Shown: one piece after another, positions 1 through 47,130 of the stretch
How positions within the stretch are numbered: position 1 is the stretch's first letter
How the letters are laid out: the number at the start of each line of letters is the position of its first letter
From: Escherichia coli
GTDB lineage: Bacteria; Pseudomonadota; Gammaproteobacteria; Enterobacterales; Enterobacteriaceae
Length of the DNA stretch: 64,000 bases
Strand: one strand, 5' to 3'
Assembly: GCF_022846255.1 (NCBI RefSeq)
Contig: NZ_AP025682.1
The notes under the pieces: generated by a model
The model's database searches: none
Told to the model about the DNA's origin: nothing
What the model saw: the letters and a program-made list of their open reading frames with translations, nothing else
Translations under genes and position numbers: made by a program

Positions 1-210
1 CGAGTTACATTTAGTTACATGTTTAACACTTGATTTAAGATTTGTAATGGCTAGATTGAAATCAGATGTAATCCATTAGTTTTATATTTTACCCATTTAG
101 GGCTGATTTATTACTACACACAGCAGTGCAACATCTGTCAGTACTTCTGGTGCTTCTATTTTAGAAGCAGCTGTCAGGTGTGCGATCAATAAAAAAAGCG
201 GGGTTTCATC
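1..210 (+). promoter_or_regulatory. csgD promoter-proximal region and long 5' UTR
   Basis: Lies directly upstream of csgD. A TAGATT -10-like hexamer is at 52-57, which puts a TSS near 63-65. That fits the ~148-nt csgD leader I recall. The GTTACATTTAGTTACATGTTTAAC repeat at 3-28 resembles the OmpR site recalled for this promoter. Confidence 0.55.
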
Positions 211-5753: not shown

Positions 5754-5841
5754 GGTGAGGTGTCCGAGTGGCTGAAGGAGCACGCCTGGAAAGTGTGTAT
5801 ACGGCAACGTATCGGGGGTTCGAATCCCCCCCTCACCGCCA
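5754..5841 (+). tRNA. serX: tRNA-Ser (anticodon GGA)
   Basis: 88 nt, GGTGAGGTGTCCGAGTGG...GGTTCGAATCCCCCCCTCACCGCCA. It has a long variable arm, anticodon loop CTGGAAA and an encoded CCA. Confidence 0.97.
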
Positions 5842-7207: not shown

Positions 7208-8272
7208 TTAACTGTATGCATGTAGCGTACGTTGGCAAAGTGCCGAACGTACGCAATCCTCTTTACCGAATCGGACGATCCCGACCATTTCATCCTCTTC
7301 GAAACGTTCCAGCGCGTCACTTAATCCGGAGCGCACGCCGCGAGGCAAATCGCATTGCGTGATATCACCGTTGACGATAACCGTCACGTTCTCCCCGAGG
7401 CGGGTTAAAAACATTTTCATTTGCGCGGCAGTCACATTCTGCGCCTCGTCAAGAATGACGACTGCATTTTCAAAGGTACGTCCACGCATATAGGCGAACG
7501 GCGCAATTTCCACCTTCCCTATTTCCGGTCGCAGGCAGTACTGCATAAAGGAAGCCCCTAAGCGACGGACCAGCACGTCGTAGACCGGGCGAAAATAGGG
7601 AGCAAACTTTTCTGCGATATCACCAGGTAAGAAACCAAGATCTTCATCGGCTTGCAGAACTGGACGGGTAACGATAATCCTGTCGACATCCTTATGTATC
7701 AGGGCCTCTGCCGCTTTTGCTGCGCTGATCCAGGTTTTTCCGCACCCGGCTTCGCCCGTGGCAAATATCAGCTGCTTACTCTCAATAGCCTTCAGATAGT
7801 GCAATTGCGCTTCATTTCGCGCGAGGATGGGCGAGGTATCGCGACTGTCGCGGGCCATACCAATGGCTTCTACGCCGCTCATCTGCACAAGCGAGGTGAC
7901 CGATTCTTCTTCACGCTGCTTATGGCTGCGCGAATCCCGTCTCAGCACACGTTTTGCCTCGCGACGAGCTTTGATCACTGCTTTTTGTCTTCCCATGGAG
8001 AGCACCTTGAGTTGTTTGTATTCATCACACGCGCCGTTGGCAGCGCGATTATGCGCACGAACATCAGAGGGTTGGCTTCCTTGTAAGCCATAGTTTGCTT
8101 TTGGATAAAATGCCGAAAAACGGCTACGCGCACCGTTTACGGCGTCGGTAACACATGAAAAGAAAGGATGAGGTTGAAAATACAAAGTGACGAGATGACT
8201 ACCGGAGGAGAAATCTCCGCGAGTGGTGGCGCGCTGATTATCTGAAACATGTCCAGTACAGGACGTTACCAT
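7208..8272 (-). CDS. phoH: PhoH phosphate-starvation-inducible ATPase
   Basis: 354-aa ORF with Walker A GEAGCGKT. The sequence is as recalled for K-12 PhoH. Confidence 0.96.
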   Translation of the reverse strand: MVTSCTGHVSDNQRATTRGDFSSGSHLVTLYFQPHPFFSCVTDAVNGARSRFSAFYPKANYGLQGSQPSDVRAHNRAANGACDEYKQLKVLSMGRQKAVIKARREAKRVLRRDSRSHKQREEESVTSLVQMSGVEAIGMARDSRDTSPILARNEAQLHYLKAIESKQLIFATGEAGCGKTWISAAKAAEALIHKDVDRIIVTRPVLQADEDLGFLPGDIAEKFAPYFRPVYDVLVRRLGASFMQYCLRPEIGKVEIAPFAYMRGRTFENAVVILDEAQNVTAAQMKMFLTRLGENVTVIVNGDITQCDLPRGVRSGLSDALERFEEDEMVGIVRFGKEDCVRSALCQRTLHAYS

Positions 8273-28955: not shown

Positions 28956-29095
28956 TGCCTGATACGACGCTTAACGCATCTTATCAGGCCCACAAAAAGC
29001 ACTGTTCCCGTAGGCCGGATAAGGCGTTCTCGCCGCATCCGGCAACTGCGCACTAATGCCTGATGCGACGCCTGCCGCGTCTTATCAGGCCTACA
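28956..29095. repeat. REP/BIME cluster
   Basis: Repeated TGCCTGATGCGACGC...CTTATCAGGCCTAC and GCCGGATAAGGCG units between cbpM and torD. Confidence 0.85.
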
Positions 29096-35499: not shown

Positions 35500-35766
35500 G
35501 TCATCAAACCTGTCGCACTCCAGAGAAGCGCAACGCCTCGCAATCCAGTGCAAAGCTTTGCGTGCCCCCACTACGACCTGCATAACCAGTAAGAAGATAG
35601 CAGTGATGTCAAACGACGCAGCTGACTTCTTTTCTTTCACGACTTCCCCACACCCAGCATGCATACCTTTCTGCCATAACTGTAGTGAATGTCTGCTATG
35701 AGCGAGGAGTGATCATTAGCCTCTCAGCCGGATGCCTTAGAGTACGCCAGAAATAAAAGGATTGCG

Positions 35767-36960
35767 CTACTGCGCCTTCCTGTTTTGACGGGATGTGGCA
35801 TATGTCATCGCTACCGCTCCCAGAAGTAACAAACCACTTAAACCAAAAGCACTTCTCCATCCCAGACTGTCGAATACCAGACCTCCAGCTGTTGAACCAA
35901 GTGCAATAAATAACTGAATCACCGCAACCATGAGGCCTCCCCCCGTCTCTGCATCTTCGGGTAACGCGCGTGCTATCCATGTCCACCACCCCGTTGGCGC
36001 AGCTGTCGCAAGTAGCCCCCACAGGCTGAGTAGAACGGCAACAGCCCAGATATGGTGTCCGACCAGCAGTAGCGCACCGGTAATCGCTGCCATAAGCAAC
36101 GGGATCATGATTAAGGTCTTATAAAATGTGGTGTTCAGGAATGTTGAGACGATCATTGTGCCGACAAAACCTGCTACGCCTATTGCGAGCAAAATCAGAG
36201 AAAGATCAGAAGGTCCCACTCTGGTGACGCTCTCCAGAAAGGGGCGCACGTAGGTAAATAAAGCAAACTGTCCCATAAAGAAGAGTCCGCAGGCCAGCAG
36301 TCCCGTTGGTACGATGGCAACGCTGAACAGGCGAAGCACAGATCTCTGTGGCTTTTGTGTTTTATCACTTTCCATCGGAGGCAGACTGACCCATTGCCAG
36401 ATGAACGCAGCTATCGCAAGGGGGACCAGACATAAAAAGGCCCCACGCCAACCGATGGTTGTCCCCAGATAGCTACCAAGCGGCGCTGCTACAACGGTGG
36501 CCAGCGCGTTGCCGCCGTTAAAAATTGCCAGTGCGCGGGAAACCTGGTGCTGCGGCACGAGCCGAATGGCGGTTGCAGCCGACATTGACCAGAACCCTCC
36601 GATGACAACACCAATCAGAGCCCTCCCCAGCATATAAATCGGATAGTCAGGTGCTATAGTGATAATTATTCCCGATATGGCCATTAAGACCGTCAGTCCT
36701 AGCAAAAGATATTTTCGATCCAGGTCTCCGACAATACGGGAGATAGTCAGACTGGTAAGCACCGCCAGCGCACCAGAGACAGCAATTCCTTGCCCTGCCA
36801 GCCCTTCGGTAACGTGCAAATCATGGGCAATGAGCGTAAGCAGGCTGACTGGCATAAACTCAGAAGCGATCAGCACAAACACGCAAAGCGTCATGGCGAA
36901 TACGCCGCTCCAGTATGCATGCGTTTTTCCGTATGATTGTTTGAGACTTACAGTGGACAT
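35767..36960 (-). CDS. MFS transporter (12-TMS, DHA1/sugar-efflux-like)
   Basis: 397-aa polytopic ORF with an MFS-type loop motif (GDLDRKYLLLG) and ~12 hydrophobic segments. Confidence 0.8.
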   Translation of the reverse strand: MSTVSLKQSYGKTHAYWSGVFAMTLCVFVLIASEFMPVSLLTLIAHDLHVTEGLAGQGIAVSGALAVLTSLTISRIVGDLDRKYLLLGLTVLMAISGIIITIAPDYPIYMLGRALIGVVIGGFWSMSAATAIRLVPQHQVSRALAIFNGGNALATVVAAPLGSYLGTTIGWRGAFLCLVPLAIAAFIWQWVSLPPMESDKTQKPQRSVLRLFSVAIVPTGLLACGLFFMGQFALFTYVRPFLESVTRVGPSDLSLILLAIGVAGFVGTMIVSTFLNTTFYKTLIMIPLLMAAITGALLLVGHHIWAVAVLLSLWGLLATAAPTGWWTWIARALPEDAETGGGLMVAVIQLFIALGSTAGGLVFDSLGWRSAFGLSGLLLLGAVAMTYATSRQNRKAQ

Positions 36961-37137
36961 TATTAGCCCCCCTTAATATCGAACCAGCCAGATTCAGGCG
37001 CAGTCGGGTCAGAAGTTATTCAGGGAATAACGACATAATAGTTGGGTGAGAATAGAGGGCGATGCGGCATATTCTGCATCACACCAGACAGTTAAAAGCC
37101 ACCCGTTTACGACAGGTGGCCTGGTAAACCTTTCGGG

Positions 37138-38289
37138 TTATCTTAAGTTTGCCTTGAAAAATTGCTCAAATTTGGCAAATGGGATCTTACCCGCAACGTT
37201 GTCGTACAGATCAACATGGTTTGCCCCGGGGACAATCACTAACTCTTTCTCTTTGCTGCCGATTGCCTTAAAGGCATCTTCAGCAAAATAGCGTGAATGG
37301 GCTTTTTCACCGGTCACGATGAGTGTAGGGATAGTAACTTCATTAGCATAACTCAGCAGCGGCATATTCATAAATGACAGCGGCATGGTTGCATTCCAAG
37401 CACTGGTTGAGTTGACCGAACGCGCATGGAAACCACGCGGCATGCGGTAATAATCAAAGAACTCTTTCAATACCGGATTTGGATTCGCTGGCAGAGTTTC
37501 CGGCAAAATACGATCGGAAGCGGTGACGTTGCCCTTCTCATCAACGTAAATATCATGCCCGCCTGGCGCGAAAGCGCCATTTTCAGCATCCTTCCAGCGC
37601 TGCATGTTCAGATACTGCAATACGGCACGACGATCGGCAGTGGTGTAGCGGTCTTTGCCATCGCCCACGCCATGCCCCATTGCACGGCTCATGTCATACA
37701 TCACGCTGCTCGCCACCGCCTTGACACGTGTGTCCATCGCGGCGTCGTTTAAGGCCATGCCACCCCATCCGCAGATGCCGAGCAACCCGATACGGTTGCG
37801 ATCCACCTCTTTTTGCAGGCCTAAGAAATCAACCGCCGCGCTGAAATCCTCGGTGTTGATATCCGGAGATGCGACGTTTCGCGGGTAGCCGCCGCTTTCA
37901 CCCGTGTATGAAGGGTCAAAAGCCAGAGTGACAAACCCCCGTTCAGCCAGCGTCTGCGCATACAGGCCACTGGATTGCTCTTTCACCGCCCCGAAGGGGC
38001 CACTAACAGCAATAGCTGCCAGCTTGCGATCGCCACGATCCTTCGGTATATAGAGATCCCCGACTAAGGTGATCCCGTACCGGTTCGGAAAGGTCACCTT
38101 ACGGTGATCAACTTTCGTGCTCTCAGCAAACGTTTTATCCCATTTCTCGACCTGCGAAACGGGCGCGTTCGGATTGGTTGTATCAGCGTAACTCATATTT
38201 GTGACTCCATTTAATGATACGCATAACAGCATGGCGGGTATCGCAGCTGTCAATTTTTGGGTGAAAGCAGTCATCAAAATTCCCCTCAT
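37138..38289 (-). CDS. Exported alpha/beta-fold hydrolase (dienelactone-hydrolase-like)
   Basis: 383-aa ORF with an N-terminal signal-like segment (AIPAMLLCVSLNGVTNMSYA). It has a candidate nucleophile elbow IGLLGICGWGG and a C-terminal VPGANHVDLY His motif. Confidence 0.7.
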   Translation of the reverse strand: MRGILMTAFTQKLTAAIPAMLLCVSLNGVTNMSYADTTNPNAPVSQVEKWDKTFAESTKVDHRKVTFPNRYGITLVGDLYIPKDRGDRKLAAIAVSGPFGAVKEQSSGLYAQTLAERGFVTLAFDPSYTGESGGYPRNVASPDINTEDFSAAVDFLGLQKEVDRNRIGLLGICGWGGMALNDAAMDTRVKAVASSVMYDMSRAMGHGVGDGKDRYTTADRRAVLQYLNMQRWKDAENGAFAPGGHDIYVDEKGNVTASDRILPETLPANPNPVLKEFFDYYRMPRGFHARSVNSTSAWNATMPLSFMNMPLLSYANEVTIPTLIVTGEKAHSRYFAEDAFKAIGSKEKELVIVPGANHVDLYDNVAGKIPFAKFEQFFKANLR

Positions 38290-38357
38290 AAAATGTGCCA
38301 GATACTGGTTTCAGACGGATAACACTGCTGTGCTTTGTTGCAACGTGCACATTATAG

Positions 38358-38376
38358 TTAGCATTAATAGTGCTAA
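38358..38376. promoter_or_regulatory. Candidate LysR-type operator in the divergent promoter
   Basis: Perfect dyad TTAGCA-N7-TGCTAA (T-N11-A type) between the hydrolase gene and the LysR gene. Confidence 0.55.
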
Positions 38377-38444
38377 TTAGAGGGTAAAAAATGCTAAGAT
38401 TAATAACATATTGTTCTTAATCGTGATGCAGCAGCAGAGGAAGG

Positions 38445-39332
38445 ATGATGGCGAAACGGGAAAACTATAACGATCTCTATCTGTTTATGAAGGTCGTGCG
38501 AGAAGGGAGTTTTACCGCCGCCGCGCAGAGGCTTGGCCTGGCGCAGTCAGGAATTAGCCGTGCAGTGCGCGAGCTGGAAGAGCGACTGGGCGTGCAGCTT
38601 CTAGTACGCACCACGCGCAAGTTATCGCTCACCCATGCCGGCGAGTTATTCTATCGAAACGTCGAATCTGGATTTGACGCCTTAGATATGGGGCTTGCCA
38701 CGCTGGCCCATTATCGCCATACACCATCGGGTACGGTCCGAATTAATGCGAGCCAGCATGCCATTGATAAAGTGCTTCTGCCGAAGCTGGCGGTGTTTAA
38801 ACAACGATACCCGGATATTCGGCTGGAGCTCATCAGCGAAAGCCGGTTTGTCGATATTATTACTGAGCGCTTCGATGCCGGTATACGTCTGGGCTCGGAA
38901 GTGGATAGCGGTATGGTTGCGGTGCGCATTTCGCCCGATATGGAGATGGCCGTTGTCGGCACACCCGAGCACTTTCGTCGCTACGGATTTCCGCAAACCC
39001 CCACCGATTTAGTGGGTCATCCCTGCATCGCTTACCAGTTCGGCGACGGCAGCCTGTATGCCTGGGAACTCAATCAGGACGGTAAAAAGATCACCCATCA
39101 GCCTCAGGGACAATGGGCCTTTGCTGACAGTTATATGGAAGCCAAAGCCGCGAGGCTAGGTCTGGGACTGGCTTATGTTCCGGAGGAATTGGTGTCTGAT
39201 GATATAGAACAGGGGGCGCTGATCAGAGTTTTGCAATGCTACAGCCAACGCCTGGCAGGTTCATATATCTATTATCCGCACAGAAATGTGTCACCCGCTC
39301 TACGAGCGGTTATCGATACATTGAGAATTTAA
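38445..39332 (+). CDS. LysR-family transcriptional regulator
   Basis: 295-aa ORF with an N-terminal wHTH (FMKVVREGSFTAAAQRLGLAQSGISRAVRELEERLGVQLLVRTTR) and a LysR substrate-binding domain. It is divergent from the hydrolase-MFS pair. Confidence 0.9.
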   Translation: MMAKRENYNDLYLFMKVVREGSFTAAAQRLGLAQSGISRAVRELEERLGVQLLVRTTRKLSLTHAGELFYRNVESGFDALDMGLATLAHYRHTPSGTVRINASQHAIDKVLLPKLAVFKQRYPDIRLELISESRFVDIITERFDAGIRLGSEVDSGMVAVRISPDMEMAVVGTPEHFRRYGFPQTPTDLVGHPCIAYQFGDGSLYAWELNQDGKKITHQPQGQWAFADSYMEAKAARLGLGLAYVPEELVSDDIEQGALIRVLQCYSQRLAGSYIYYPHRNVSPALRAVIDTLRI

Positions 39333-40217
39333 GGGATGAAGATGAGATGATTCGCAGGCCTGGGTAATAGTTGGAAAACAACGTCCGTTCCTGGCACAGA
39401 GCAGACCATCGGACTAAACTGAAGGTCCTCTCTGTGCGAGAAACGGAAGTTAGCAATTGTGATACAGACGTGGGGCATTACTCGCTTTACAGTGTGTTAA
39501 TCAATTGGAAACAGGTCAGAATTTATTGGGTGGAATGACACCTTTAAACTTCTTGCGCATCGCAAGGAATATCTCCACCAGACGGTAAGACAGTAGATTG
39601 CGCCACAAGTCCTCAGAATGCCCTTTGCTGGGTTAACCACACGTCGTAATCATCCTTCCAGTGCAGCGGATCAAGATCCGTAATGCTCATAGTCACGCGA
39701 TTTCAAATACAAGCCCAGTGGTGTTATCCGTGAGCTGGACAGTGCTTCCGGCAACATGACTGAGACAGACAAAAAATCAGTTAGTACAGCATTGACTCAG
39801 GTTGAGCAGGAGTTAAAACAAACTGGGCTGGAGCAGTAGAAGCCTGCAGTGAATTCCCTGAATCAGGCGATTAAGTTGGCTTAAGAGTCCGTGTATGCCA
39901 TGTGCCGCGAGATGTCGTGCTATACGTGAAAGTCAGCGATATATATCGTTTTGAAGATGATTTAGGTTACGGGAGTGTCTCTGGGTGATGTATTACTTCA
40001 TCGACATCGGCTACGCACGGGTTGCCGCGATGCAGCGGATGGAAGCTGTCTGGGAAAAGAAAGCTCCGCTTGCTAATATTAGTACATCCGATGAAAAATC
40101 GTGTGTGAAAGTTGCAGATTCGTAATATACTAATGAAGAATGGAGATGTATTTTATATAATAAAAACATCTAAGTAGAGCTTTTTATTTTAAATCCTTCA
40201 TTATTACTGGAGATTTT
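39333..40217. other. ORF-poor 0.9-kb segment with short broken reading frames
   Basis: No ORF of 60 aa or more on any frame. Only fragments of ~26-50 codons are present, for example ATG 39756 to TAG (MTETDKKSVSTALTQVEQELKQTGLEQ*), ~39985-40126 (+, ~46 aa) and ATG 39690 (-, 26 aa). Confidence 0.5.
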
Positions 40218-41996
40218 ATGGGTTTTTATAATGACGCACTGAGTAAAATATATAGTGAAGATGATGATTTCCTAATTATAGGATTAACAGGGAGGACGGG
40301 GTCAGGCTGTTCAACAGTTTCTAATATACTGTCATCAGAATCAAGTGAGATAAAGCATTCTCTATTTAACGGTGATTACCCTAAGTCGAATGAAGAAAGA
40401 AAAGAGCGGGTTCTATTTAAATATTTTTCCGTGTCATGGGTTCCATTTATAAAGATACAAGCAAGTTCCATACTGACATTGTGTTTATCAAAGGACTTTG
40501 ATGGTAAGCTGAATAAATTTATTCGGGAAGTGACGGAGTTAGGTAATGACCAAAGAATCCTAGAGTCAACAGTTAATGATCTTGAATCTATACTAAAAGA
40601 AATTAAAGCTAAAGATGAAAGCTCTGATCATGATATAGATGATAAGATAAAATTCATAAATGAATATCTAATAAAAGCGAATACACAAATTAAATCCATA
40701 TTTAAGAACAAGGCTGACTATATAAAACTATATCAAGCTATAGGTAATAATTATAGATCTAGTGGGATGTACCATGACAGTTCATTTAGTGATGATTTCC
40801 ATGGTTTTTTTCTTCCTAAAAAAATAAATGATATAATTCAAAGATTAAGAACCTTAGCAAAAGAAAAGAACACAAAAACTGGAGAAAAGAAACCTATTTA
40901 TATAGTTATTGATGCTATAAGAAATCCGTTCGAAGCAACATACTTCCAAGATAGATACTCATCATTTTATTTAATGGCTGTTTCTACAGAAGAGCATTAC
41001 AGGCATCAAAGGCTTAGAGAACAAGGTTTAACTGATGCTGAGATAAAAGATATTGATGCAAAAGAATACCGTAAATCATCTTTGGATGAGAAGTCATCAT
41101 ATATATATCAGAATATACAGTCTTGTTTAGAAATATCAGACATCTATGTTGAGAATCCGGAAGAGGAAAATGTTGTTTGTCGGTACTCAGGATTGGCTAA
41201 TCAATTAATTAAATTCACTTCATTAATGAAGCGTCCCGGTATAATAACTCCATCAAATGTTGAACGTTGCATGCAGATAGCATATACAGCTAAGTTGAAC
41301 TCTGGTTGTATATCCAGGCAGGTAGGCGCTGCAGTATCTGATAGTTCATTTTCAATTAAGTCTATTGGTTGGAATGATGTACCAAGTGGTCAAGTTCCTT
41401 GCTCTTTAAGGGATAGGTTTGATTTGTCTGAGGGGATTGATGATATTGCTTACTCTGAATTCGAAAAGAACGAAAATAGTTTCATTCGAAAAATAGATAG
41501 CACTAAGATTATTTTTTTAGATGTTAAAAATAAAGGAATGAGAGCTCCATTTTGTTTTAAAACAGAATGGAATAATATCCTTGATGATAAATACAAAGAA
41601 GATCTACGGGTCGAGCATAAGTTAAATGATGATGAGTTTGCTATTATTGACAAAATAAAGTCTAACGCTAATCAAGTTTTTACAAGATCACTTCATGCTG
41701 AAGAGAATGCTTTCTTACAAATATCTAAGTATGGTGGCGTTGGTATACAGAATGGTTTTTTGTTCACAACAGCAAGCCCTTGTGAATTATGTTCTAAAAA
41801 AGCGTATCAATTAGGGATCAAACAAATATATTACATAGATCCATACCCTGGTATAGCAATGAGGAATATTTTAAACGCAGGGAGCAATAAACCATTGCTT
41901 AAGCTTTTCAATGGTGCAATAGGTAAGGCATTCCATAATTTTTACACGCCAAGAATGGCTTATAAAGATGAGCTTTCAGCAAGATCTAGGGGGTGA
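40218..41996 (+). CDS. P-loop NTPase-like + dCMP/cytidine deaminase fusion protein (AvcD/DcdV-like dCTP-deaminase defence candidate)
   Basis: 592-aa ORF with a GGAG SD 6 nt upstream of the ATG. It has a P-loop GLTGRTGSGCST (aa 22-33), the motif IVIDAIRNPFEATYF, and the zinc deaminase signature H493-A-E495...P521-C522-E-L-C525. That signature is preceded by GCISRQVGAAV...IGWNDVPSG. The gene is strongly AT-rich relative to its neighbours. Confidence 0.85.
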   Translation: MGFYNDALSKIYSEDDDFLIIGLTGRTGSGCSTVSNILSSESSEIKHSLFNGDYPKSNEERKERVLFKYFSVSWVPFIKIQASSILTLCLSKDFDGKLNKFIREVTELGNDQRILESTVNDLESILKEIKAKDESSDHDIDDKIKFINEYLIKANTQIKSIFKNKADYIKLYQAIGNNYRSSGMYHDSSFSDDFHGFFLPKKINDIIQRLRTLAKEKNTKTGEKKPIYIVIDAIRNPFEATYFQDRYSSFYLMAVSTEEHYRHQRLREQGLTDAEIKDIDAKEYRKSSLDEKSSYIYQNIQSCLEISDIYVENPEEENVVCRYSGLANQLIKFTSLMKRPGIITPSNVERCMQIAYTAKLNSGCISRQVGAAVSDSSFSIKSIGWNDVPSGQVPCSLRDRFDLSEGIDDIAYSEFEKNENSFIRKIDSTKIIFLDVKNKGMRAPFCFKTEWNNILDDKYKEDLRVEHKLNDDEFAIIDKIKSNANQVFTRSLHAEENAFLQISKYGGVGIQNGFLFTTASPCELCSKKAYQLGIKQIYYIDPYPGIAMRNILNAGSNKPLLKLFNGAIGKAFHNFYTPRMAYKDELSARSRG

Positions 41997-42226
41997 AAAT
42001 ATTGATACAGGTAAAGGCAACGAACCAGAAATGCTCGAGACTATTCTGGCTAAGTCTGCCGGGCGATAAGCACGAGTGCATATGCTGTTCCAAAAGTCTT
42101 CTATTCAATAAATTACGAAGTGCTAACTAACTGACCATGTACAATAAGAACAAATCGCCTTGAATTGCTCTTGATTGAATGGTGAAGAATTATGAGGGTG
42201 ATAGTCCTTACCACCCTCAATTAAAA

Positions 42227-42453
42227 TTAAAGGTATTTACGTGAGAAATTTTTCTTAACCACACTACTAATAAAACTATTTAGTCCATGCCCATCCTGGG
42301 CTAGCGCTTTCATCTTAGAGACCGTTGAAGCACCCAGTTTTGTAGAATCGTAACGTATTTCCATCCATCTTTAAACTGTACTGTGATAACATCGGGAGTA
42401 ATCTCATAAAACACTATTCCCGAATTACCGCCTTAATTAGCATAAGTTGGCAT
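42227..42453 (-). pseudogene. Decayed KTSC-domain-like gene (in-frame stop plus frameshift)
   Basis: The minus strand reads MPTYAN*GGNSGIVFYEITPDVITVQFKDGWKYV. After a 1-nt frame change it continues YDSTKLGASTVSKMKALAQDGHGLNSFISSVVKKNFSRKYL*. The 227-nt length is not a multiple of 3. The pattern resembles KTSC domains. Confidence 0.4.
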
Positions 42454-42797
42454 TTTTAATTCTTATTAAATTATTGCAGCAAGTCGCTGCACTCTAGTCA
42501 TATGACCCCATGCTAAACCTAATTGTTGAGCTAAGTCATAATTTCGATTATTTGATGAACGTAAGTTATTTGACAGGCAGAATTAACCATACACAGTAAT
42601 ATCCGTTTCTGGCACATAGCAGTCCTATAGATAGTGGCATACAGTCATAGATGGTCGATTGGAGGAGGTGCAAATTCTCCCATACAAAAAATACGTAAAA
42701 TCAATAACAGCTGGAAATTATTTAATAATCAAATTATCGGAAGTTCACCAGCCAGCCGCAGTATTCTGCCACGACAAGTTGCTGCGGCTTTTTATGT

Positions 42798-43085
42798 TTA
42801 ACGGATAAACAGCCAGACCAGCAGACACGCCACCGCGGGCACCGCAAAATCCATCAGACTTGCCACATCCCATGCACGAGGATCAAAACCGCCCCACCAC
42901 GGCATGTTAATCCGCTTGCCATGCCCGAACATTTCAATCCAGCGATATTCTGCCTGGGTGTGTTCACGCGCAATGAAGAACGTACAACCGGCTATCGCCC
43001 CGTAAGCCCAGTTTCCGGTAAAAAGACCAATCAGTAGCTGCGCAGCCACAGCACAAAGTGCATGAAGGAAAGGTGTTATATCCAT
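42798..43085 (-). CDS. Small membrane protein (95 aa), unknown function; moron candidate
   Basis: The preferred start is MDITPFLHAL, because AAGGAGG lies 5 nt upstream. It has two or three hydrophobic segments and is the last gene of the minus-strand tail-fibre transcription unit. Confidence 0.65.
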   Translation of the reverse strand: MDITPFLHALCAVAAQLLIGLFTGNWAYGAIAGCTFFIAREHTQAEYRWIEMFGHGKRINMPWWGGFDPRAWDVASLMDFAVPAVACLLVWLFIR

Positions 43086-43098
43086 TACTCCTCCTTTA

Positions 43099-43800
43099 TC
43101 AGATATCACTTCGGGAAGTTGATAACAACTTTAATTCTGACTCAAGTTCATCAACTCTTTCAGTCAGTTTCTGGATATGGTGAATCAGTGGAACAACCAG
43201 ACGTTCGTACATTACACCTTCGACAACAAGGCCATTGCTGGAAATAGCTTCAGGAGCATCATCTTCGTTAGCTGGTCGCCAGTGTACAAACTGAGGAGCA
43301 ATTTCTCCCACTTCCTCGGCAATCAATCCGTAGAATCCCCAGTCACTCCTGTCATTTTCGCATTGCGACCTGTACCACACAGGGCGCATCCTGAAAATGA
43401 GATCGGCGTGCTCTGAATCTATTGTCTCTACTGAATGTTTATAGCGAATAGACGATGTTGACCGCAGTACAGACGAAATTGCAGGGTCAGGATTAAGATA
43501 AAGATTTGCCGCCGCTGTAGTCGTGCCCAATTCCCATAAATAAAACGCTTCACGGCCAGTCAGCGGGTAAAAATCTCCACCATAACGACCGCTTTCCAGA
43601 TCGTTCACTTCCAGTTTGTTTTTCAGCTTATTATCAACTTCAGTTTTTGTGTATCTGGTGCTGATATCCTGCTTTGCACTGGTCATATCAGTCTGAAGCG
43701 TTGATACTTTTCCGTTAATTGAGGAAATATCTTCCTTAGTTTTACTGACATCTCCCTTTAGCGTGGTGATATCTCCTGGAATTACTGTCGATGTAGCCAT
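43099..43800 (-). CDS. Short tail-fibre/tailspike-like protein with a C-terminal S74-type intramolecular chaperone domain
   Basis: 233 aa. The N-terminus has coiled-coil heptads (ITTLKGDVSKTKEDISSINGKVSTLQTDMTSAKQDIS). The C-terminal block STSSIRYKHSVETI...GLIAEEV...LESELKLL is typical of the auto-cleaving chaperone domain. Confidence 0.7.
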   Translation of the reverse strand: MATSTVIPGDITTLKGDVSKTKEDISSINGKVSTLQTDMTSAKQDISTRYTKTEVDNKLKNKLEVNDLESGRYGGDFYPLTGREAFYLWELGTTTAAANLYLNPDPAISSVLRSTSSIRYKHSVETIDSEHADLIFRMRPVWYRSQCENDRSDWGFYGLIAEEVGEIAPQFVHWRPANEDDAPEAISSNGLVVEGVMYERLVVPLIHHIQKLTERVDELESELKLLSTSRSDI

Positions 43801-43809
43801 TTGTCTCCC

Positions 43810-44091
43810 TCACATCCAGCCACGAAGTTGATGCTCAACAACAACCGCATATTTATCGAATATTGACGATTTTTTTGCATCATTAATGATGCGCACGTTT
43901 ACAAAATATCCGTCTTCCTTAACACATACCGGTTCGCCATCTTCAGTCAGTTCTCCGGTTTCTTTGTACACGTTACCTATCACGTCAATAAGAATATTAT
44001 CCTGCATCGACTCGTCATCATAATAGCCAGTGCTCTCCATAAAGGCCGAAAAGTCGGCCCTGTCTGCAAATTTGAGTGTTAAATCTTTCAT
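43810..44091 (-). CDS. Hypothetical 93-aa protein, translationally coupled to the side tail fibre gene
   Basis: TAATG overlap with the upstream gene. It occupies the tfa position but does not resemble lambda Tfa as I recall it. Confidence 0.6.
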   Translation of the reverse strand: MKDLTLKFADRADFSAFMESTGYYDDESMQDNILIDVIGNVYKETGELTEDGEPVCVKEDGYFVNVRIINDAKKSSIFDKYAVVVEHQLRGWM

Positions 44092-46466
44092 TAGATTGAC
44101 TCCCCCACCTGAGCATCAGTCAATGCCTTGTGCCATATTCTGAAATTCCTGACATGACCAAATAAATGACGTAACCCGGCAGTAGTCTGGCCTCCAATAC
44201 GGATAATTGCGGTGTTCTGAATACAGGACCATGTGGTTTTTGTTTCGCTGGATATACGCCCGTTACTTACTGAGCACGTAGACTGATCTGACTTTACACG
44301 CATCCCCATAACCATTTTTTCAAGCGATGCGTTTTCGTTTACCCGTCTGTTAGCTCCTCCAATATCGCAATAAGGAAATCCGTCGTAATCTGTTGAACGA
44401 CCGAAGCCAAGAATAATAGCCGCTCCGGTTTGATGACCGCCGGTGTCAAAAACACGCGGAGCTGCATTTGGCGTTTTATACCAGTTCTTATGTACCTCAC
44501 AAAGAACCGTAAAAGGAAGATTATAAAGATTATTCTTAATGGGAACTGTAACTATATCGCTTGCGCGGGTCGCCGCCGTCGTTCCTGATATAATAAAAGA
44601 TGATACACAAGGCCCATTTTCTACTTGTGGGGTGGCCAGATAAATATAGTCACCAGATACGGTTGCCCCGCCCTGCTTAGGAGAATACTGTATCTGAGAA
44701 CCTATTTTTAACTCCCCATCAATTGCCTGAATTGTTGCCTCTGCAAAAATCCATCCGGTAGCTTCGTCCTTTCTGACTCTCGCAGTAATCCTTGAGGCAG
44801 CACCGCCTGTCATATTAATTTCAAGCGTTTGTGTATCAATATACGCATCACCAAGAAAAGTTGTTGCGCTACCGTCATATTTATCAAACCGGATACGCAA
44901 CCTTACCTGCAGTTCTGTTTTAAAACGACATGAGGTTGTCACGTGTTTATTATCGCCTGAGACATCAACTGACTTTGTTGCAGCAATTGATGCCATATTA
45001 ATGGCTGAGGTTTGCCCAATCAGAGAATCGTTGCAGACAAACTTTCCATAGGTAAAACCAAAACTATCCGTCCCTGTTTCGGGCACATCCATATTTGACG
45101 ATCGCCCCCAACTGGCAGGGTTTTCCGAATTGAGCATGTAGTTTGTTCTTTGCCCCTCAATAAGCAGGCCATCACGTTCAAACCGTGGCTCGTCAATGGC
45201 AGCCTCTGTCAGCACACCAGATTTATTAATGTAAGTTGCTTTTGATGCGCGTTTAAACTTTACAACCTTATCGCCAGGCATCGTTATTTCATCATCACCA
45301 ATAACAATCTTTTTATATGACGGCGAAAAGCCCGTAATCATATCCAGTGAATCGTTAAACGGTATCCACACATCGGGAAGCGGCTGCAATACTTGTTTAT
45401 ACGGCTCCGCAGCCTGGCTTGCATACTCTCTGGCTGCGTCTTCACTTGCTTTTGCAGCCGTCTGGCTTGCAGCGGATGCTTTCGCCGAGTTAGCCGCCGC
45501 AGTCTCGCTCGCCTTTGCGTTGGTTTCACTGGTTTTTGCAGCTTTTTGACTGTTGGCTGATGCAGTGGCAGAAGCAGCCGCCGCGCTTGCAGAGCCAGCT
45601 GCAGCACTCTCGCTTTCGGCTGCTGCATCCTGACTGCTTTTCGCCGCAGTTTCACTGGCTTTGGCATTCGTTTCGCTGGTTTTCGCTGCCGTCTGGCTGG
45701 ACTTTGCGTTGGTTTCGCTGGTTTTTGCAGCTTTTTGACTGTTGGCTGATGCAGTGGCAGAAGAAGCCGCCGCACTTGCAGAACCAGCTGCAGCACTCTC
45801 GCTTTCGGCTGCTGCATCCTGACTGCTTTTCGCCGCAGTTTCACTGGCTTTGGCATTCGTTTCGCTGGTTTTCGCTGCCGTCTGGCTGGACTTTGCGTTG
45901 GTTTCGCTCGTCTTTGCGGCTGTCTCGCTGTTTTTCGCATTGGTTTCTGATTTTTTGGCTGCTGTCGCGGAGTTTGCCGATGCAGTCTGTGAGGTCGCTG
46001 CCGCCTGTGCGCTGTTAGCTGCATTCGTTTCTGAGGTTTTCGCCGCGTTCTTCGATGATGCCGCTGCAGTTTCGGATTTCTTTGCCGCCGCTGCGCTCTG
46101 AGAGGCGGCTTCGGCGTTGCGTGCCGCTTCTTCCACCATTTCCTGAAAACGGCGCAATGCCTCCGGCATGACATCATCTTCCGTCATGGCACCGAGAAAA
46201 TCATTCAGCGTCCCCGGACTGGAACCTTCATAGACGGTAATGGTCCCAACATGTGATGGCTGAGAACCCTCAATCCACAGGATGACGCTGTACTGACCAT
46301 ACTCAACGTCCATACTGTAACGCCCGGCTTCATCAGGATTTTCAGAGGTCACCGTGTTCACCAATACCGTGGTGCTGTTACGCTTTGCCTTCAGTTGAAT
46401 AGTGCAGTTCTGTATTGGTTTTCCCGCACCATCTTTCAGCACACCTGAGATTTTTACTGCTGCCAT
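44091..46466 (-). CDS. stf: Side tail fibre (lambda Stf-like N-terminus, different C-terminal receptor-binding region)
   Basis: The N-terminus MAAVKISGVLKDGAGKPIQNCTIQLKAKRNSTT...YSMDVEYGQYSV matches lambda Stf. The middle is Ala/Ser/Thr/Lys/Glu repeats. The C-terminal end LFGHVRNFRIWHKALTDAQV looks LamG/lectin-like. The ATG at 46466 has a GGAG upstream. Confidence 0.88.
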   Translation of the reverse strand: MAAVKISGVLKDGAGKPIQNCTIQLKAKRNSTTVLVNTVTSENPDEAGRYSMDVEYGQYSVILWIEGSQPSHVGTITVYEGSSPGTLNDFLGAMTEDDVMPEALRRFQEMVEEAARNAEAASQSAAAAKKSETAAASSKNAAKTSETNAANSAQAAATSQTASANSATAAKKSETNAKNSETAAKTSETNAKSSQTAAKTSETNAKASETAAKSSQDAAAESESAAAGSASAAASSATASANSQKAAKTSETNAKSSQTAAKTSETNAKASETAAKSSQDAAAESESAAAGSASAAAASATASANSQKAAKTSETNAKASETAAANSAKASAASQTAAKASEDAAREYASQAAEPYKQVLQPLPDVWIPFNDSLDMITGFSPSYKKIVIGDDEITMPGDKVVKFKRASKATYINKSGVLTEAAIDEPRFERDGLLIEGQRTNYMLNSENPASWGRSSNMDVPETGTDSFGFTYGKFVCNDSLIGQTSAINMASIAATKSVDVSGDNKHVTTSCRFKTELQVRLRIRFDKYDGSATTFLGDAYIDTQTLEINMTGGAASRITARVRKDEATGWIFAEATIQAIDGELKIGSQIQYSPKQGGATVSGDYIYLATPQVENGPCVSSFIISGTTAATRASDIVTVPIKNNLYNLPFTVLCEVHKNWYKTPNAAPRVFDTGGHQTGAAIILGFGRSTDYDGFPYCDIGGANRRVNENASLEKMVMGMRVKSDQSTCSVSNGRISSETKTTWSCIQNTAIIRIGGQTTAGLRHLFGHVRNFRIWHKALTDAQVGESI
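45514..45891 (-). repeat. Two tandem 189-bp (63-codon) in-frame repeats inside stf
   Basis: TTTGCGTTGGTTTC(A/G)CTGGTTTTTGCAGCTTTTTGACTG... recurs at 45514 and 45703. A diverging third copy starts at 45892. The protein repeat is KSSQTAAKTSETNAKASETAAKSSQDAAAESESAAAGSASAAA.SATASANSQKAAKTSETNA. Confidence 0.9.
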
Positions 46467-46475
46467 ATCCACTCC

Positions 46476-46504
46476 ACAAAAAAGCCCGCCTGAACCGGCG
46501 GGCT
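46476..46504 (-). terminator. Rho-independent terminator after lom
   Basis: Minus strand: AGCCCGCC-ggttca-GGCGGGCT followed by TTTTTTGTGG. Confidence 0.8.
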
Positions 46505-46530
46505 GTCATAACACTGTGTTACCTGGCTAA

Positions 46531-47130
46531 TCAGAACTTATAACCGACACCCACGATGAAACCGTCAGTGCGCCAGTCGCCACTGCCGGAGCCTTCATAA
46601 GCAATATCAATGGCCACGGATTCGGTCGGGTTAAACTGCACGCCAGCTCCCCACGCCAGAGACGTGTTGCTGTGGCGATCGTCATCACTTCCGGTCAGCA
46701 CATCGTGCGTTTTCCCCTTGTTGTCAGTTACGCGGAGATAATCCCCGGAGAACGTCGAAACACGGCTGTAAGCCACACCTGCCATCGCATAAGCACTGAA
46801 CCATTCATTCACGCGTACAGATGGCCCCGCCATCATGCTGAACCAGCGGTTACGCACTGAATCTTCATGCCAGCGGGTATCGCTGTAATGCGTTTTTTGC
46901 TCATCTTTGGCATTGGCATAACTGAATGACGTCACCAGCCCCAGCGTGTCCGTAAACTCATAACGGTATTTCACGTTAATCCCGTTCAGATCATCGCTGC
47001 CTGGCATATCAGTATGGGTCTGAAGATACCCGGCGCTTAGTGTGGACTGATGCTCTGCTGCGCTTGCTGGCGTACCAGCGGCAACCAGCCAGACTACTGC
47101 GGACAGAATAACAGCACATAATTTACGCAT
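46531..47130 (-). CDS. lom: Lom (Ail/Lom-family outer-membrane beta-barrel protein)
   Basis: 199 aa with a signal peptide and a terminal ...GVGYKF. It occupies the lambda lom position after J. Confidence 0.93.
   Translation of the reverse strand: MRKLCAVILSAVVWLVAAGTPASAAEHQSTLSAGYLQTHTDMPGSDDLNGINVKYRYEFTDTLGLVTSFSYANAKDEQKTHYSDTRWHEDSVRNRWFSMMAGPSVRVNEWFSAYAMAGVAYSRVSTFSGDYLRVTDNKGKTHDVLTGSDDDRHSNTSLAWGAGVQFNPTESVAIDIAYEGSGSGDWRTDGFIVGVGYKF

What the first reader, a model, noticed from the sequence alone, without database searches (positions are those of the whole stretch)
40218..41996. Prophage-borne P-loop NTPase + dCMP/cytidine deaminase fusion: candidate nucleotide-depletion antiphage gene
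This single 592-aa gene is on the opposite strand to every flanking phage gene. It sits in a visibly AT-rich block (roughly 40130-42740) between the tail-fibre genes and attR. That is the lambda b-region position, a classical slot for morons and defence genes. The N-terminal half has a P-loop, GLTGRTGSGCST (aa 22-33), in which the canonical Walker-A Lys is Cys (TGT at 40308-40310), and a kinase-like IVIDAIRNPFE motif. The C-terminal half has the zinc-deaminase signature H493-A-E495 ... P521-C522-x-x-C525. That signature is preceded by GCISRQVGAAV...IGWNDVPSGQVPC, which is the dCMP-deaminase (ComEB/DCTD) fold. About 97 residues separate the GWNDVPSGQVPC strand from HAE, against roughly two dozen in the canonical dCMP deaminases I recall, so there is a large charged insertion. 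The two-domain architecture is that of the dCTP-deaminase defence proteins and of AvcD/DcdV in the AvcID system. Those proteins destroy dC nucleotides when phage infection shuts off host transcription. This copy is a divergent E. coli prophage version, and its degenerate Walker A and insertion are worth characterising.
Basis: partly seen in the sequence, partly recalled or inferred. Interest (0 to 1): 0.85.

Follow-up and report, generated by a model that had tools for sequence, protein, structure and literature searches.

The report
Known anti-phage dCTP deaminase gene
This is an intact copy of an already described bacterial anti-phage enzyme that starves infecting viruses of the DNA building block dCTP; it sits in a small plasmid-derived insert at the tail-fibre end of an E. 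coli prophage, and it is ordinary for its family.

Summary
The gene belongs to the published anti-phage dCTP deaminase family (Tal et al.). It matches the PADLOC dCTPase model at E=5e-127. It aligns end to end with the experimentally validated E. coli AW1.7 enzyme (38% identity, E=6e-123). The identical protein, from E. coli SF-468, is already listed in that paper's family table. The two features called "divergent" are not. The P-loop Cys is present in 75/75 relatives, and the equivalent C30A mutation was already shown to abolish defence. About 70 of the 97 spacer residues in the deaminase domain are family-wide; only a 26-aa helical insert is specific to this clade. No AvcI-like upstream RNA is supported: the upstream DNA is a decayed plasmid mobX gene plus about 100 nt of promoter and leader. 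RefSeq calls the protein "hypothetical" only because it scores 370.7 bits against a 400-bit cut-off. The gene lies in a 3.2-kb AT-rich module bracketed by a 24-nt repeat, next to lambdoid tail-fibre genes.

The parts
39380..39451 (.). Left boundary of the module. An att-like crossover core (39380-39406; repeat copy 1 at 39384-39407) lies inside a 31-nt-arm inverted repeat (39380-39410 / 39421-39451).
   Evidence: The STEC299-type match ends at 39406 and the SF-468-type match starts at 39380/39381. In the three-way alignment all three share CTGGCACAGAGCAGAC while the arms differ. Repeat statistics: 3 matches against 0.02 expected.
39717..40113 (+). mobX pseudogene, a remnant of a small mobilizable plasmid. 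It lacks the N-terminal 43 codons and has three in-frame stops and one frameshift.
   Evidence: blastn gives about 70% identity to mobX on 127 E. coli plasmid places. tblastn with MobX WP_023281055.1 gives 66% and 61% identity in two frames.
40089..40217 (+). Conserved promoter and leader region of the deaminase gene: TATAAT at 40156-40161 and GGAG at 40209-40212.
   Evidence: This is the only upstream DNA shared with the 90%-identical plasmid copy L004. Its RNA fold is not unusual (z=-1.36). The consensus promoter scan did not call a promoter here because no good -35 element is present.
40218..41996 (+). Anti-phage dCTP deaminase gene, 592 aa.
   Evidence: PADLOC dCTPase 423 bits, E=5e-127. 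NF041025 370.7 bits. 38% identity over the full length to the validated AW1.7 enzyme, E=6e-123. The protein is identical to that of E. coli SF-468, which is listed in Tal et al. Table S1.
40218..41237 (+). N-terminal P-loop kinase-like domain (aa 1 to about 340). P-loop codons are 40281-40316, with Cys31 at 40308-40310.
41250..41993 (+). C-terminal zinc deaminase domain (aa about 345-592). HAE is at 41694-41702 and PCxxC at 41778-41792. Conserved C364 and C395 correspond to AW1.7 C370 and C401.
41580..41657 (+). Clade-specific 26-residue helical insert (aa about 455-480) inside the family-wide helical spacer (aa 396-492).
   Evidence: The segment is 32 residues in the window clade and 6 in 70/75 other relatives. 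The model predicts helices 447-466 and 471-480 at pLDDT 65-76.
42012..42619 (.). Downstream segment shared at about 92% with 173 other E. coli genomes, where it flanks other cargo. It holds a frameshifted small ORF (42227-42414, - strand) and a terminator-like hairpin (42193-42219, - strand).
42602..42625 (+). Repeat copy 2 (88% identical to copy 1), the right boundary of the 3.2-kb module. It is again a mosaic crossover point.
42798..47130 (-). Distal end of the lambdoid prophage, given as context: a small phrog_1443 protein, a tail-fibre C-terminal/Peptidase_S74 protein, a phrog_1361 protein, a 793-aa tail fibre and Lom.
   Evidence: Pfam and PHROGs. This stretch is contiguous with the deaminase module at 97.6% identity in SF-468.

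Best explanation
The gene encodes a single-protein anti-phage dCTP deaminase of the family described by Tal et al. By analogy with the tested members, it is made in uninfected cells but kept inactive. When a lytic phage interferes with host transcription, it becomes active. The C-terminal zinc deaminase domain then converts dCTP, dCDP and dCMP to deoxyuridine nucleotides. This empties the dC pool and stalls phage DNA synthesis. The N-terminal kinase-like domain, with its Cys-containing P-loop, is required for this activity. Shown here: family membership, domain folds, conservation of every residue whose mutation kills the AW1.7 enzyme, and the genomic setting. That setting is a 3.2-kb low-GC module, partly derived from a small mobilizable plasmid, bracketed by a 24-nt repeat, and linked to the tail-fibre end of a lambdoid prophage. 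Inferred, not shown: enzymatic activity, phage protection and the trigger for this particular ortholog.
Against: This ortholog has never been tested. Its score is below the NCBIfam equivalog cut-off (370.7 against 400), and it is only 38% identical to the nearest tested protein. Its neighbours within the module are pseudogenes (mobX remnant, frameshifted small ORF), and frameshifted copies of the gene exist in ST131, so selection on the module is not uniform. The consensus scan did not call a promoter. No close relative occurs in 50,697 deposited phage genomes. How this branch is kept inactive is unknown.
Confidence: 0.87

Rival explanations
1. It is the toxin of an AvcID-type type III toxin-antitoxin pair. 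An unrecognised small RNA encoded just upstream binds and inhibits the enzyme, and decay of that RNA after transcription shut-off activates it.
For: The superfamily is the same: V. cholerae AvcD and the ETEC homolog sit in the same Tal et al. table and hit the same PADLOC model. AvcI homologs share no sequence similarity, so sequence alone cannot exclude one. There is 837 nt without an intact ORF upstream of the gene.
Against: Only 129 nt upstream is shared with the 90%-identical plasmid copy, and homology to the 71% relatives starts at the ATG, where just 60 nt separate the gene from its upstream neighbour. Most of the upstream DNA is a mobX pseudogene. RNA folds show no excess stability (z=-1.36 and +0.24), and Rfam finds nothing. 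The window protein is only 26% identical (partial) to an AvcD-type protein, whose P-loop is GSGIKS and which, unlike the window gene, has a small same-strand ORF 55 nt upstream. AW1.7 was cloned with only 83 nt of upstream DNA and still defended.
Confidence: 0.08
2. It is a nucleotide-metabolism enzyme serving the mobile element or the host, that is, a dCMP deaminase feeding dTTP synthesis like T4 Cd or ComEB, and not a defence protein.
For: The C-terminal domain is structurally a dCMP deaminase, and its best matches include phage enzymes: T4 1vq2, cyanophage 4p9c and PBCV-1 7fh4. PHROGs dCMP-deaminase families give partial hits.
Against: The ComEB equivalog scores 36.6 bits against a cut-off of 219. 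The extra 340-aa kinase-like domain and the full-length match to the defence family are not features of metabolic dCMP deaminases. The gene is present in only 5 of 5,426 E. coli genomes. It is transcribed opposite to the phage late genes.
Confidence: 0.02
3. It is a non-functional passenger: an intact-looking but unexpressed or inactive relic in a decaying insert.
For: The flanking elements of the module are pseudogenes. Split 340-aa and 202-aa copies occur in ST131. No canonical promoter was called.
Against: A 592-codon ORF at 33% GC that is identical on 40 contigs and retains every catalytic and essential residue is unlikely to be a relic. The promoter and leader stretch is the one piece of flanking DNA that is co-conserved with the gene in the plasmid copy.
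Confidence: 0.03

Closest known systems
Anti-phage dCTP deaminase of E. coli AW1.7 (WP_045268677.1; Tal et al., bioRxiv 10.1101/2021.04.26.441389, later published in Nat Microbiol 2022 according to my own knowledge)
   Same: It has the same two-domain architecture, and the alignment is collinear over the full length (38% identity, E=6e-123). It has the same GSGC[ST]T P-loop, the same HAE/PCxxC motifs, and the same extra Cys pair (C370/C401 in AW1.7, C364/C395 in the window). It hits the same PADLOC and NCBIfam models. It is a single-gene system on a mobile element.
   Different: 62% of aligned positions differ. The window protein carries a 26-aa helical insert in the deaminase domain and small inserts in the N-terminal domain. 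It scores below the NF041025 cut-off (370.7 against 449 for AW1.7). AW1.7 carries its gene in an integrase island next to tRNA-Phe, whereas the window carries it at a prophage end. The window ortholog is untested.
AvcD/DcdV of the AvcID system (V. cholerae VC0175; ETEC H10407; Hsueh et al., bioRxiv 10.1101/2021.03.31.437871; PMC10511110)
   Same: P-loop kinase-like domain plus dCMP-deaminase domain. Same PADLOC model and same Tal et al. family table. The long helical spacer aligns through the window's insert without a gap. The presumed chemistry is the same (dC to dU nucleotides).
   Different: Identity to an AvcD-type E. coli plasmid protein is only 26%, over aa 190-576. The P-loop is GSGIKS and not GSGCST. 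AvcD has a cognate same-strand upstream sRNA, AvcI. No equivalent is supported here.
Metabolic dCMP deaminases (T4 Cd 1vq2, S. mutans 2hvv, cyanophage S-TIM5 4p9c, PBCV-1 bi-DCD 7fh4, human DCTD 2w4l)
   Different: These enzymes have no N-terminal kinase-like domain and a much shorter spacer before HAE. They serve housekeeping or phage-metabolic roles. The sequence match is limited to about 55-75 residues.
Defensive dGTPases (Tal et al.) and SAMHD1
   Same: The same strategy, depletion of one dNTP on infection. In T7 the escape mutations fall in the same gene, 5.7.
   Different: An unrelated HD-phosphohydrolase fold and different chemistry.

Membership tests
Anti-phage dCTP deaminase (Tal et al.; PADLOC dCTPase PDLC02373; NCBIfam NF041025) | Full-length match to the family profile | tested here: met
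   PADLOC 423.3 bits, E=5.3e-127, aa 8-585. For comparison, the validated AW1.7 protein scores 496 bits and an AvcD-type protein 553 bits.
Anti-phage dCTP deaminase (Tal et al.; PADLOC dCTPase PDLC02373; NCBIfam NF041025) | Score at or above the NCBIfam equivalog cut-off (400 bits) | tested here: not met
   The score is 370.7 bits, covering model positions 1-437 of 437. The whole cloud of ~50%-identical relatives lies around the cut-off (366-401 bits), including a protein that NCBI itself names anti-phage dCTP deaminase (P0051, 385.6 bits). I read this as a conservative threshold and not as evidence of a different family.
Anti-phage dCTP deaminase (Tal et al.; PADLOC dCTPase PDLC02373; NCBIfam NF041025) | N-terminal kinase-like domain with the G-S-G-C nucleotide-binding motif (G29 and C30 essential in AW1.7) | tested here: met
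Anti-phage dCTP deaminase (Tal et al.; PADLOC dCTPase PDLC02373; NCBIfam NF041025) | C-terminal zinc deaminase domain with H-A-E and P-C-x-x-C, plus the Cys pair equivalent to AW1.7 C370 and C401 | tested here: met
Anti-phage dCTP deaminase (Tal et al.; PADLOC dCTPase PDLC02373; NCBIfam NF041025) | Listed in the published 977-member family | tested here: met
   Table S1 lists E. coli SF-468, 592 aa, + strand, and E. coli 2999, 592 aa. The window protein is identical to the single SF-468 copy. IMG and RefSeq coordinates differ by 389 nt, so the identification rests on strain, length, strand and copy number.
Anti-phage dCTP deaminase (Tal et al.; PADLOC dCTPase PDLC02373; NCBIfam NF041025) | Infection-triggered depletion of dCTP and protection from phage | not testable with these tools
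   This needs plaque assays and LC-MS of nucleotide pools.
AvcID type III toxin-antitoxin system | Cognate sRNA (AvcI, about 150-300 nt) immediately 5' of the deaminase gene, on the same strand and co-transcribed | tested here: not met
   Only 129 nt upstream is co-conserved with the gene. The 71% relatives have a 60-nt upstream gap. The upstream DNA is a mobX pseudogene. There is no excess RNA structure and no Rfam match. Limit of the test: AvcI has no conserved sequence, so only transcript mapping can exclude it.
AvcID type III toxin-antitoxin system | AvcD-type protein (close relative of VC0175 or the ETEC homolog) | tested here: inconclusive
   It belongs to the same superfamily and hits the same PADLOC model, but identity is only 26% over aa 190-576 and the P-loop differs (GSGIKS against GSGCST). 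The window protein is clearly nearer to the AW1.7 branch.
Housekeeping dCMP deaminase (ComEB/DCTD) | Match to the ComEB equivalog at its cut-off, with a single-domain architecture | tested here: not met
   TIGR02571 scores 36.6 bits against a cut-off of 219.45, covering aa 488-543 only. The protein has an extra 340-aa domain.
Prophage accessory ('moron', lambda b-region-like) gene | Lies between the last tail-fibre genes and the prophage end, has its own promoter, is on the opposite strand and has atypical GC | tested here: met
   The module is contiguous with the Lom and tail-fibre genes at 97.6% identity in SF-468, while the left flank differs from 39381 onwards. GC is 0.33. The prophage's other end lies outside the window, so att was not formally defined. 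The module is itself bracketed by a repeat and may be a separate insertion.

The most novel reading that the evidence does not exclude
The Cys-P-loop (GSGC[ST]T) branch of the family, including this protein, works as a true single-gene system with no AvcI-type RNA antitoxin. The kinase-like domain itself would be the switch that senses infection, for example through a nucleotide or a signal linked to RNA polymerase. This would be a different activation logic from AvcID within one protein family. A lysogen that carries the gene inside a lambdoid prophage must also spare its own phage on induction, so it could make this directly testable.
Probability: 0.3. Interest if true: 0.45.

Novelty: already known. 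Interest (0 to 1): 0.14.

Why it matters
It matters little for discovery. The family, its chemistry and the importance of the P-loop Cys are published, and this exact protein is in the published catalogue. There are three practical points. First, RefSeq still labels this protein and many ~50%-identical relatives as "hypothetical", because the NF041025 cut-off of 400 bits sits just above their scores (366-392 bits). Annotation-based counts of this defence system are therefore too low. Second, the locus documents a route by which a defence gene moved from a small mobilizable plasmid into a prophage end. Third, the AW1.7-like branch has no evident RNA partner, so how it is activated remains open.

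Tried and rejected
- **AvcI-like RNA.** I aligned the upstream regions of the closest relatives, folded 40040-40217 and 39860-40100, and scanned Rfam at a permissive threshold. No element of the right size is conserved or structured. The hairpin at 40156-40191 is not conserved in the plasmid copy.
- **Walker A degeneration.** Rejected: the Cys is invariant in the family and functionally required.
- **Insertion unique to this copy.** Rejected: about 70 of the 97 residues are family-wide, and the AvcD branch aligns through the remaining 26.
- **Left flank as plain chromosome.** Not quite. The MFS-hydrolase-LysR block (35691-39406) lies inside a prophage in STEC299, so I did not call 39380-39406 an attB.
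- **Close relatives in deposited phage genomes.** None were found; the best matches are 25-27% identical and partial. No phage DNA matches the upstream region.
- **Recombinase for the 24-nt repeat.** I did not identify which recombinase, if any, acts on it.
- **Large searches not run.** I did not run the 1.84-billion-protein representative search or any metagenome or genome-contig scan. The answer was already clear.

Full report
**Observation.** The ORF is exactly as described: 40218-41996 on the + strand, 592 aa, ATG start, preceded by GGAG at 40209-40212. The P-loop GLTGRTGSGCST is aa 22-33, and Cys31 is encoded by TGT at 40308-40310. IVIDAIRNPFE is aa 229-239. H493-A-E495 and P521-C522-x-x-C525 are present. 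Ninety-seven residues separate C395 from H493. The gene has 32.9% GC, against 52.1% for the whole window. Everything to its right, from 42798 to the end of the window, is lambdoid tail and head DNA on the - strand: a tail-fibre C-terminal/Peptidase_S74 protein, a 793-aa tail fibre, Lom, and J-like and tape-measure genes.

**Identity.** The protein matches the PADLOC dCTPase model over its whole length (423 bits, E=5e-127). It also matches the NCBIfam equivalog 'anti-phage dCTP deaminase' NF041025 across all 437 model positions (370.7 bits). Pfam finds the dCMP/cytidine deaminase zinc-binding domain (PF00383, 47 bits) and a sub-threshold AAA_18 hit on the P-loop.

I retrieved the experimentally validated enzyme of E. 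coli AW1.7 from its RefSeq genome. BLASTP gives a collinear alignment over aa 8-586 with 38% identity and E=6e-123. Tal et al. showed for AW1.7 that G29A, C30A, C370A and C401A each abolish both defence and infection-induced dCTP depletion. These residues correspond to window G30, C31, C364 and C395, and all four are conserved.

**Already catalogued.** An exact-sequence look-up collapsed the window protein and the SF-468 protein into one sequence. They are therefore identical (ALD26572.1, 'hypothetical protein', seen on 40 contigs). Table S1 of Tal et al. lists 'Escherichia coli SF-468 ... 592 aa ... +' and 'E. coli 2999 ... 592 aa' among its 977 family members. The same table holds the 529-aa V. 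cholerae proteins (AvcD) and the 532-aa ETEC H10407 homolog tested by Hsueh et al.. SF-468 has a single copy of the gene.

RefSeq calls the protein hypothetical because 370.7 bits is below the 400-bit cut-off. The whole cloud of ~50%-identical relatives sits at 366-401 bits, including one that NCBI itself names anti-phage dCTP deaminase. This is an annotation-threshold effect and not a biological difference.

**The two 'divergent' features.** A database search found more than 4,500 relatives, mostly 550-565 aa and about 50% identical. In a 75-sequence alignment that includes AW1.7, TGSGC is present in 75/75 sequences. The Cys at the usual Walker A lysine position is therefore a family hallmark, and its mutation has already been tested.

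The spacer between C395 and H493 is 70-72 residues in 66/75 relatives and 76 in AW1.7. It is 97-98 only in the window's own clade of five sequences (59-97% identical). The difference is a 26-residue insert at about aa 455-480. The model predicts this insert as an extension of a helical hairpin, at moderate confidence. An AvcD-type E. coli plasmid protein aligns straight through that stretch without a gap, so even the insert is not unique.

**Relation to AvcID.** AvcI/DifV is a 152-174 nt (up to about 300 nt) RNA encoded immediately 5' of avcD on the same strand. It is co-transcribed with avcD, and the tested homologs share no sequence similarity in it.

In the window, the only upstream DNA co-conserved with the gene in the 90%-identical plasmid copy is 129 nt (40089-40217). 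It carries a TATAAT at 40156-40161. In the 71% relatives, homology starts at the ATG and only 60 nt separate the gene from its upstream neighbour. Predicted RNA folding is unremarkable (z=-1.36 and +0.24), and Rfam finds nothing. AW1.7 defended when cloned with just 83 nt of upstream DNA.

The window protein is 26% identical (aa 190-576) to an AvcD-type protein. That protein has a GSGIKS P-loop and, unlike the window gene, a small same-strand ORF 55 nt upstream. I therefore place the gene in the AW1.7-like branch of the dCTP deaminase family. I do not call it an AvcID toxin-antitoxin pair.

**Setting.** Only 5 of 5,426 complete E. coli genomes carry the locus. In SF-468, homology runs from window 39381 through the deaminase module into the tail-fibre genes (39381-46483 at 97.6%). 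The DNA to the left is different. Conversely, the MFS-hydrolase-LysR block (35691-39406) matches STEC299 at 98.8%, and there it lies between an integrase and early phage genes.

The two homologies overlap by 27 bp (39380-39406). All three genomes share CTGGCACAGAGCAGAC there, with different arms on either side. A second copy of this 24-nt sequence (88% identical) lies at 42602-42625. It is again at a mosaic boundary: the end of a 600-bp segment shared at about 92% with 173 E. coli genomes, where that segment flanks other cargo such as an ATP-dependent nuclease. The gene therefore sits in a 3.2-kb module bracketed by direct repeats of a crossover core, at the distal end of a lambdoid prophage.

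Within that module, 39717-40113 is a mobX pseudogene. It is 61-66% identical at the protein level to MobX of small E. coli plasmids, and it has three in-frame stops, one frameshift and a missing N-terminus. The 90%-identical homolog lies on a Rep3/TraM plasmid-like contig next to a restriction-modification module. The cargo was most probably acquired from a small mobilizable plasmid. Cluster members at >=90% identity occur in Proteus terrae and Yersinia enterocolitica, and split copies occur in ST131. No close relative is present in 50,697 deposited phage genomes. PHROGs does hold a matching family of unknown function (phrog_8118, E=2e-117).

**Mechanism.** Shown here: family membership, fold, conserved essential residues and mobile, low-GC context. 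Taken from the literature for tested relatives: deamination of dCTP, dCDP and dCMP (but not ribonucleotides) within minutes of T7 infection, a rise in dUMP, T7 escape mutations in gene 5.7, and activation linked to interference with host transcription. Inferred: that this ortholog does the same. Also inferred: a lambdoid carrier phage tolerates the gene because lambdoid phages do not shut off host transcription (my own knowledge, not tested). How the AW1.7-like branch is held inactive without an evident RNA partner is unknown.

**Verdict.** Novelty: already known. Interest: low.

Noticed in passing
window 39384-39407, 42602-42625 (+ strand) and 39427-39446 (- strand): A 24-nt repeat (TCCGTTYCTGGCACAKAGCAG-CC) gives 3 matches against 0.02 expected by chance. 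Both direct copies coincide with mosaic junctions between different mobile elements in different E. coli genomes, and together they bracket the 3.2-kb deaminase module. Copy 1 lies in a 31-nt-arm inverted repeat. It looks like an att-type or crossover core, but the recombinase is unknown.
   Followed up: partly
window 39717-40113 (+ strand): A mobX pseudogene, 61-66% identical at the protein level to MobX of small E. coli plasmids, with 3 stops, 1 frameshift and a truncated N-terminus. It lies directly upstream of the deaminase gene and points to a small-plasmid origin for the cargo.
   Followed up: yes
window 42012-42619: A 600-bp segment shared at about 92% with 173 other complete E. coli genomes. 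In SCU-113 it lies in a Rac/Qin-like prophage just downstream of an 'ATP-dependent nuclease' gene, which suggests a conserved flank of a variable-cargo (defence) hotspot. In the window, the 75-aa ORF it carries elsewhere appears frameshifted (42227-42414, - strand). A terminator-like hairpin lies at 42193-42219.
   Followed up: partly
window 35691-39406: The MFS transporter, alpha/beta hydrolase and LysR regulator cassette is 98.8% identical to a block that in E. coli STEC299 lies between a tyrosine integrase and early prophage genes (yfdR/Q/P). Only 108 of 5,426 genomes hold the LysR end. The 'chromosomal' left flank is therefore itself accessory DNA associated with mobile elements.
   Followed up: partly
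NCBIfam NF041025, scored on the window protein and on P0003, P0004, P0005 and P0051: The equivalog cut-off (400 bits) lies just above the scores of a large cloud of clear family members (366-392 bits). RefSeq therefore names them 'hypothetical protein'. Annotation-based surveys will under-count this defence system.
   Followed up: yes
window 44091-46472 (- strand): The 793-aa tail-fibre protein contains a long, internally duplicated Ala/Ser/Thr/Glu-rich stretch (...AAKTSETNAKSSQTAAKTSETNAKASETAAKSSQDAAAESESAAAGSASAAA... appears twice). In SF-468 the corresponding region is annotated as split or partial genes, which suggests repeat-driven variation or assembly trouble there.
   Followed up: no
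window 42798-43109 (- strand): A 103-aa hydrophobic ORF lies immediately after the tail-fibre genes. It matches phrog_1443 (E=5e-57, unknown function) and has no Pfam or PADLOC hit. It may be another prophage accessory gene.
   Followed up: partly
window 64-155, 5754-5841, 7213-7406, 29013-29091: RNA genes in the chromosomal part of the window: ES056 sRNA, tRNA-Ser(GGA), Ysr251 antisense RNA and naRNA4 (CssrE). All score above the Rfam gathering thresholds.
   Followed up: no
protein cluster of the window protein: Members at >=90% identity occur in Proteus terrae and Yersinia enterocolitica, which indicates recent transfer between genera. In E. coli ST131 the gene is split into 340-aa and 202-aa pieces, apparently frameshifted copies.
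   Followed up: no
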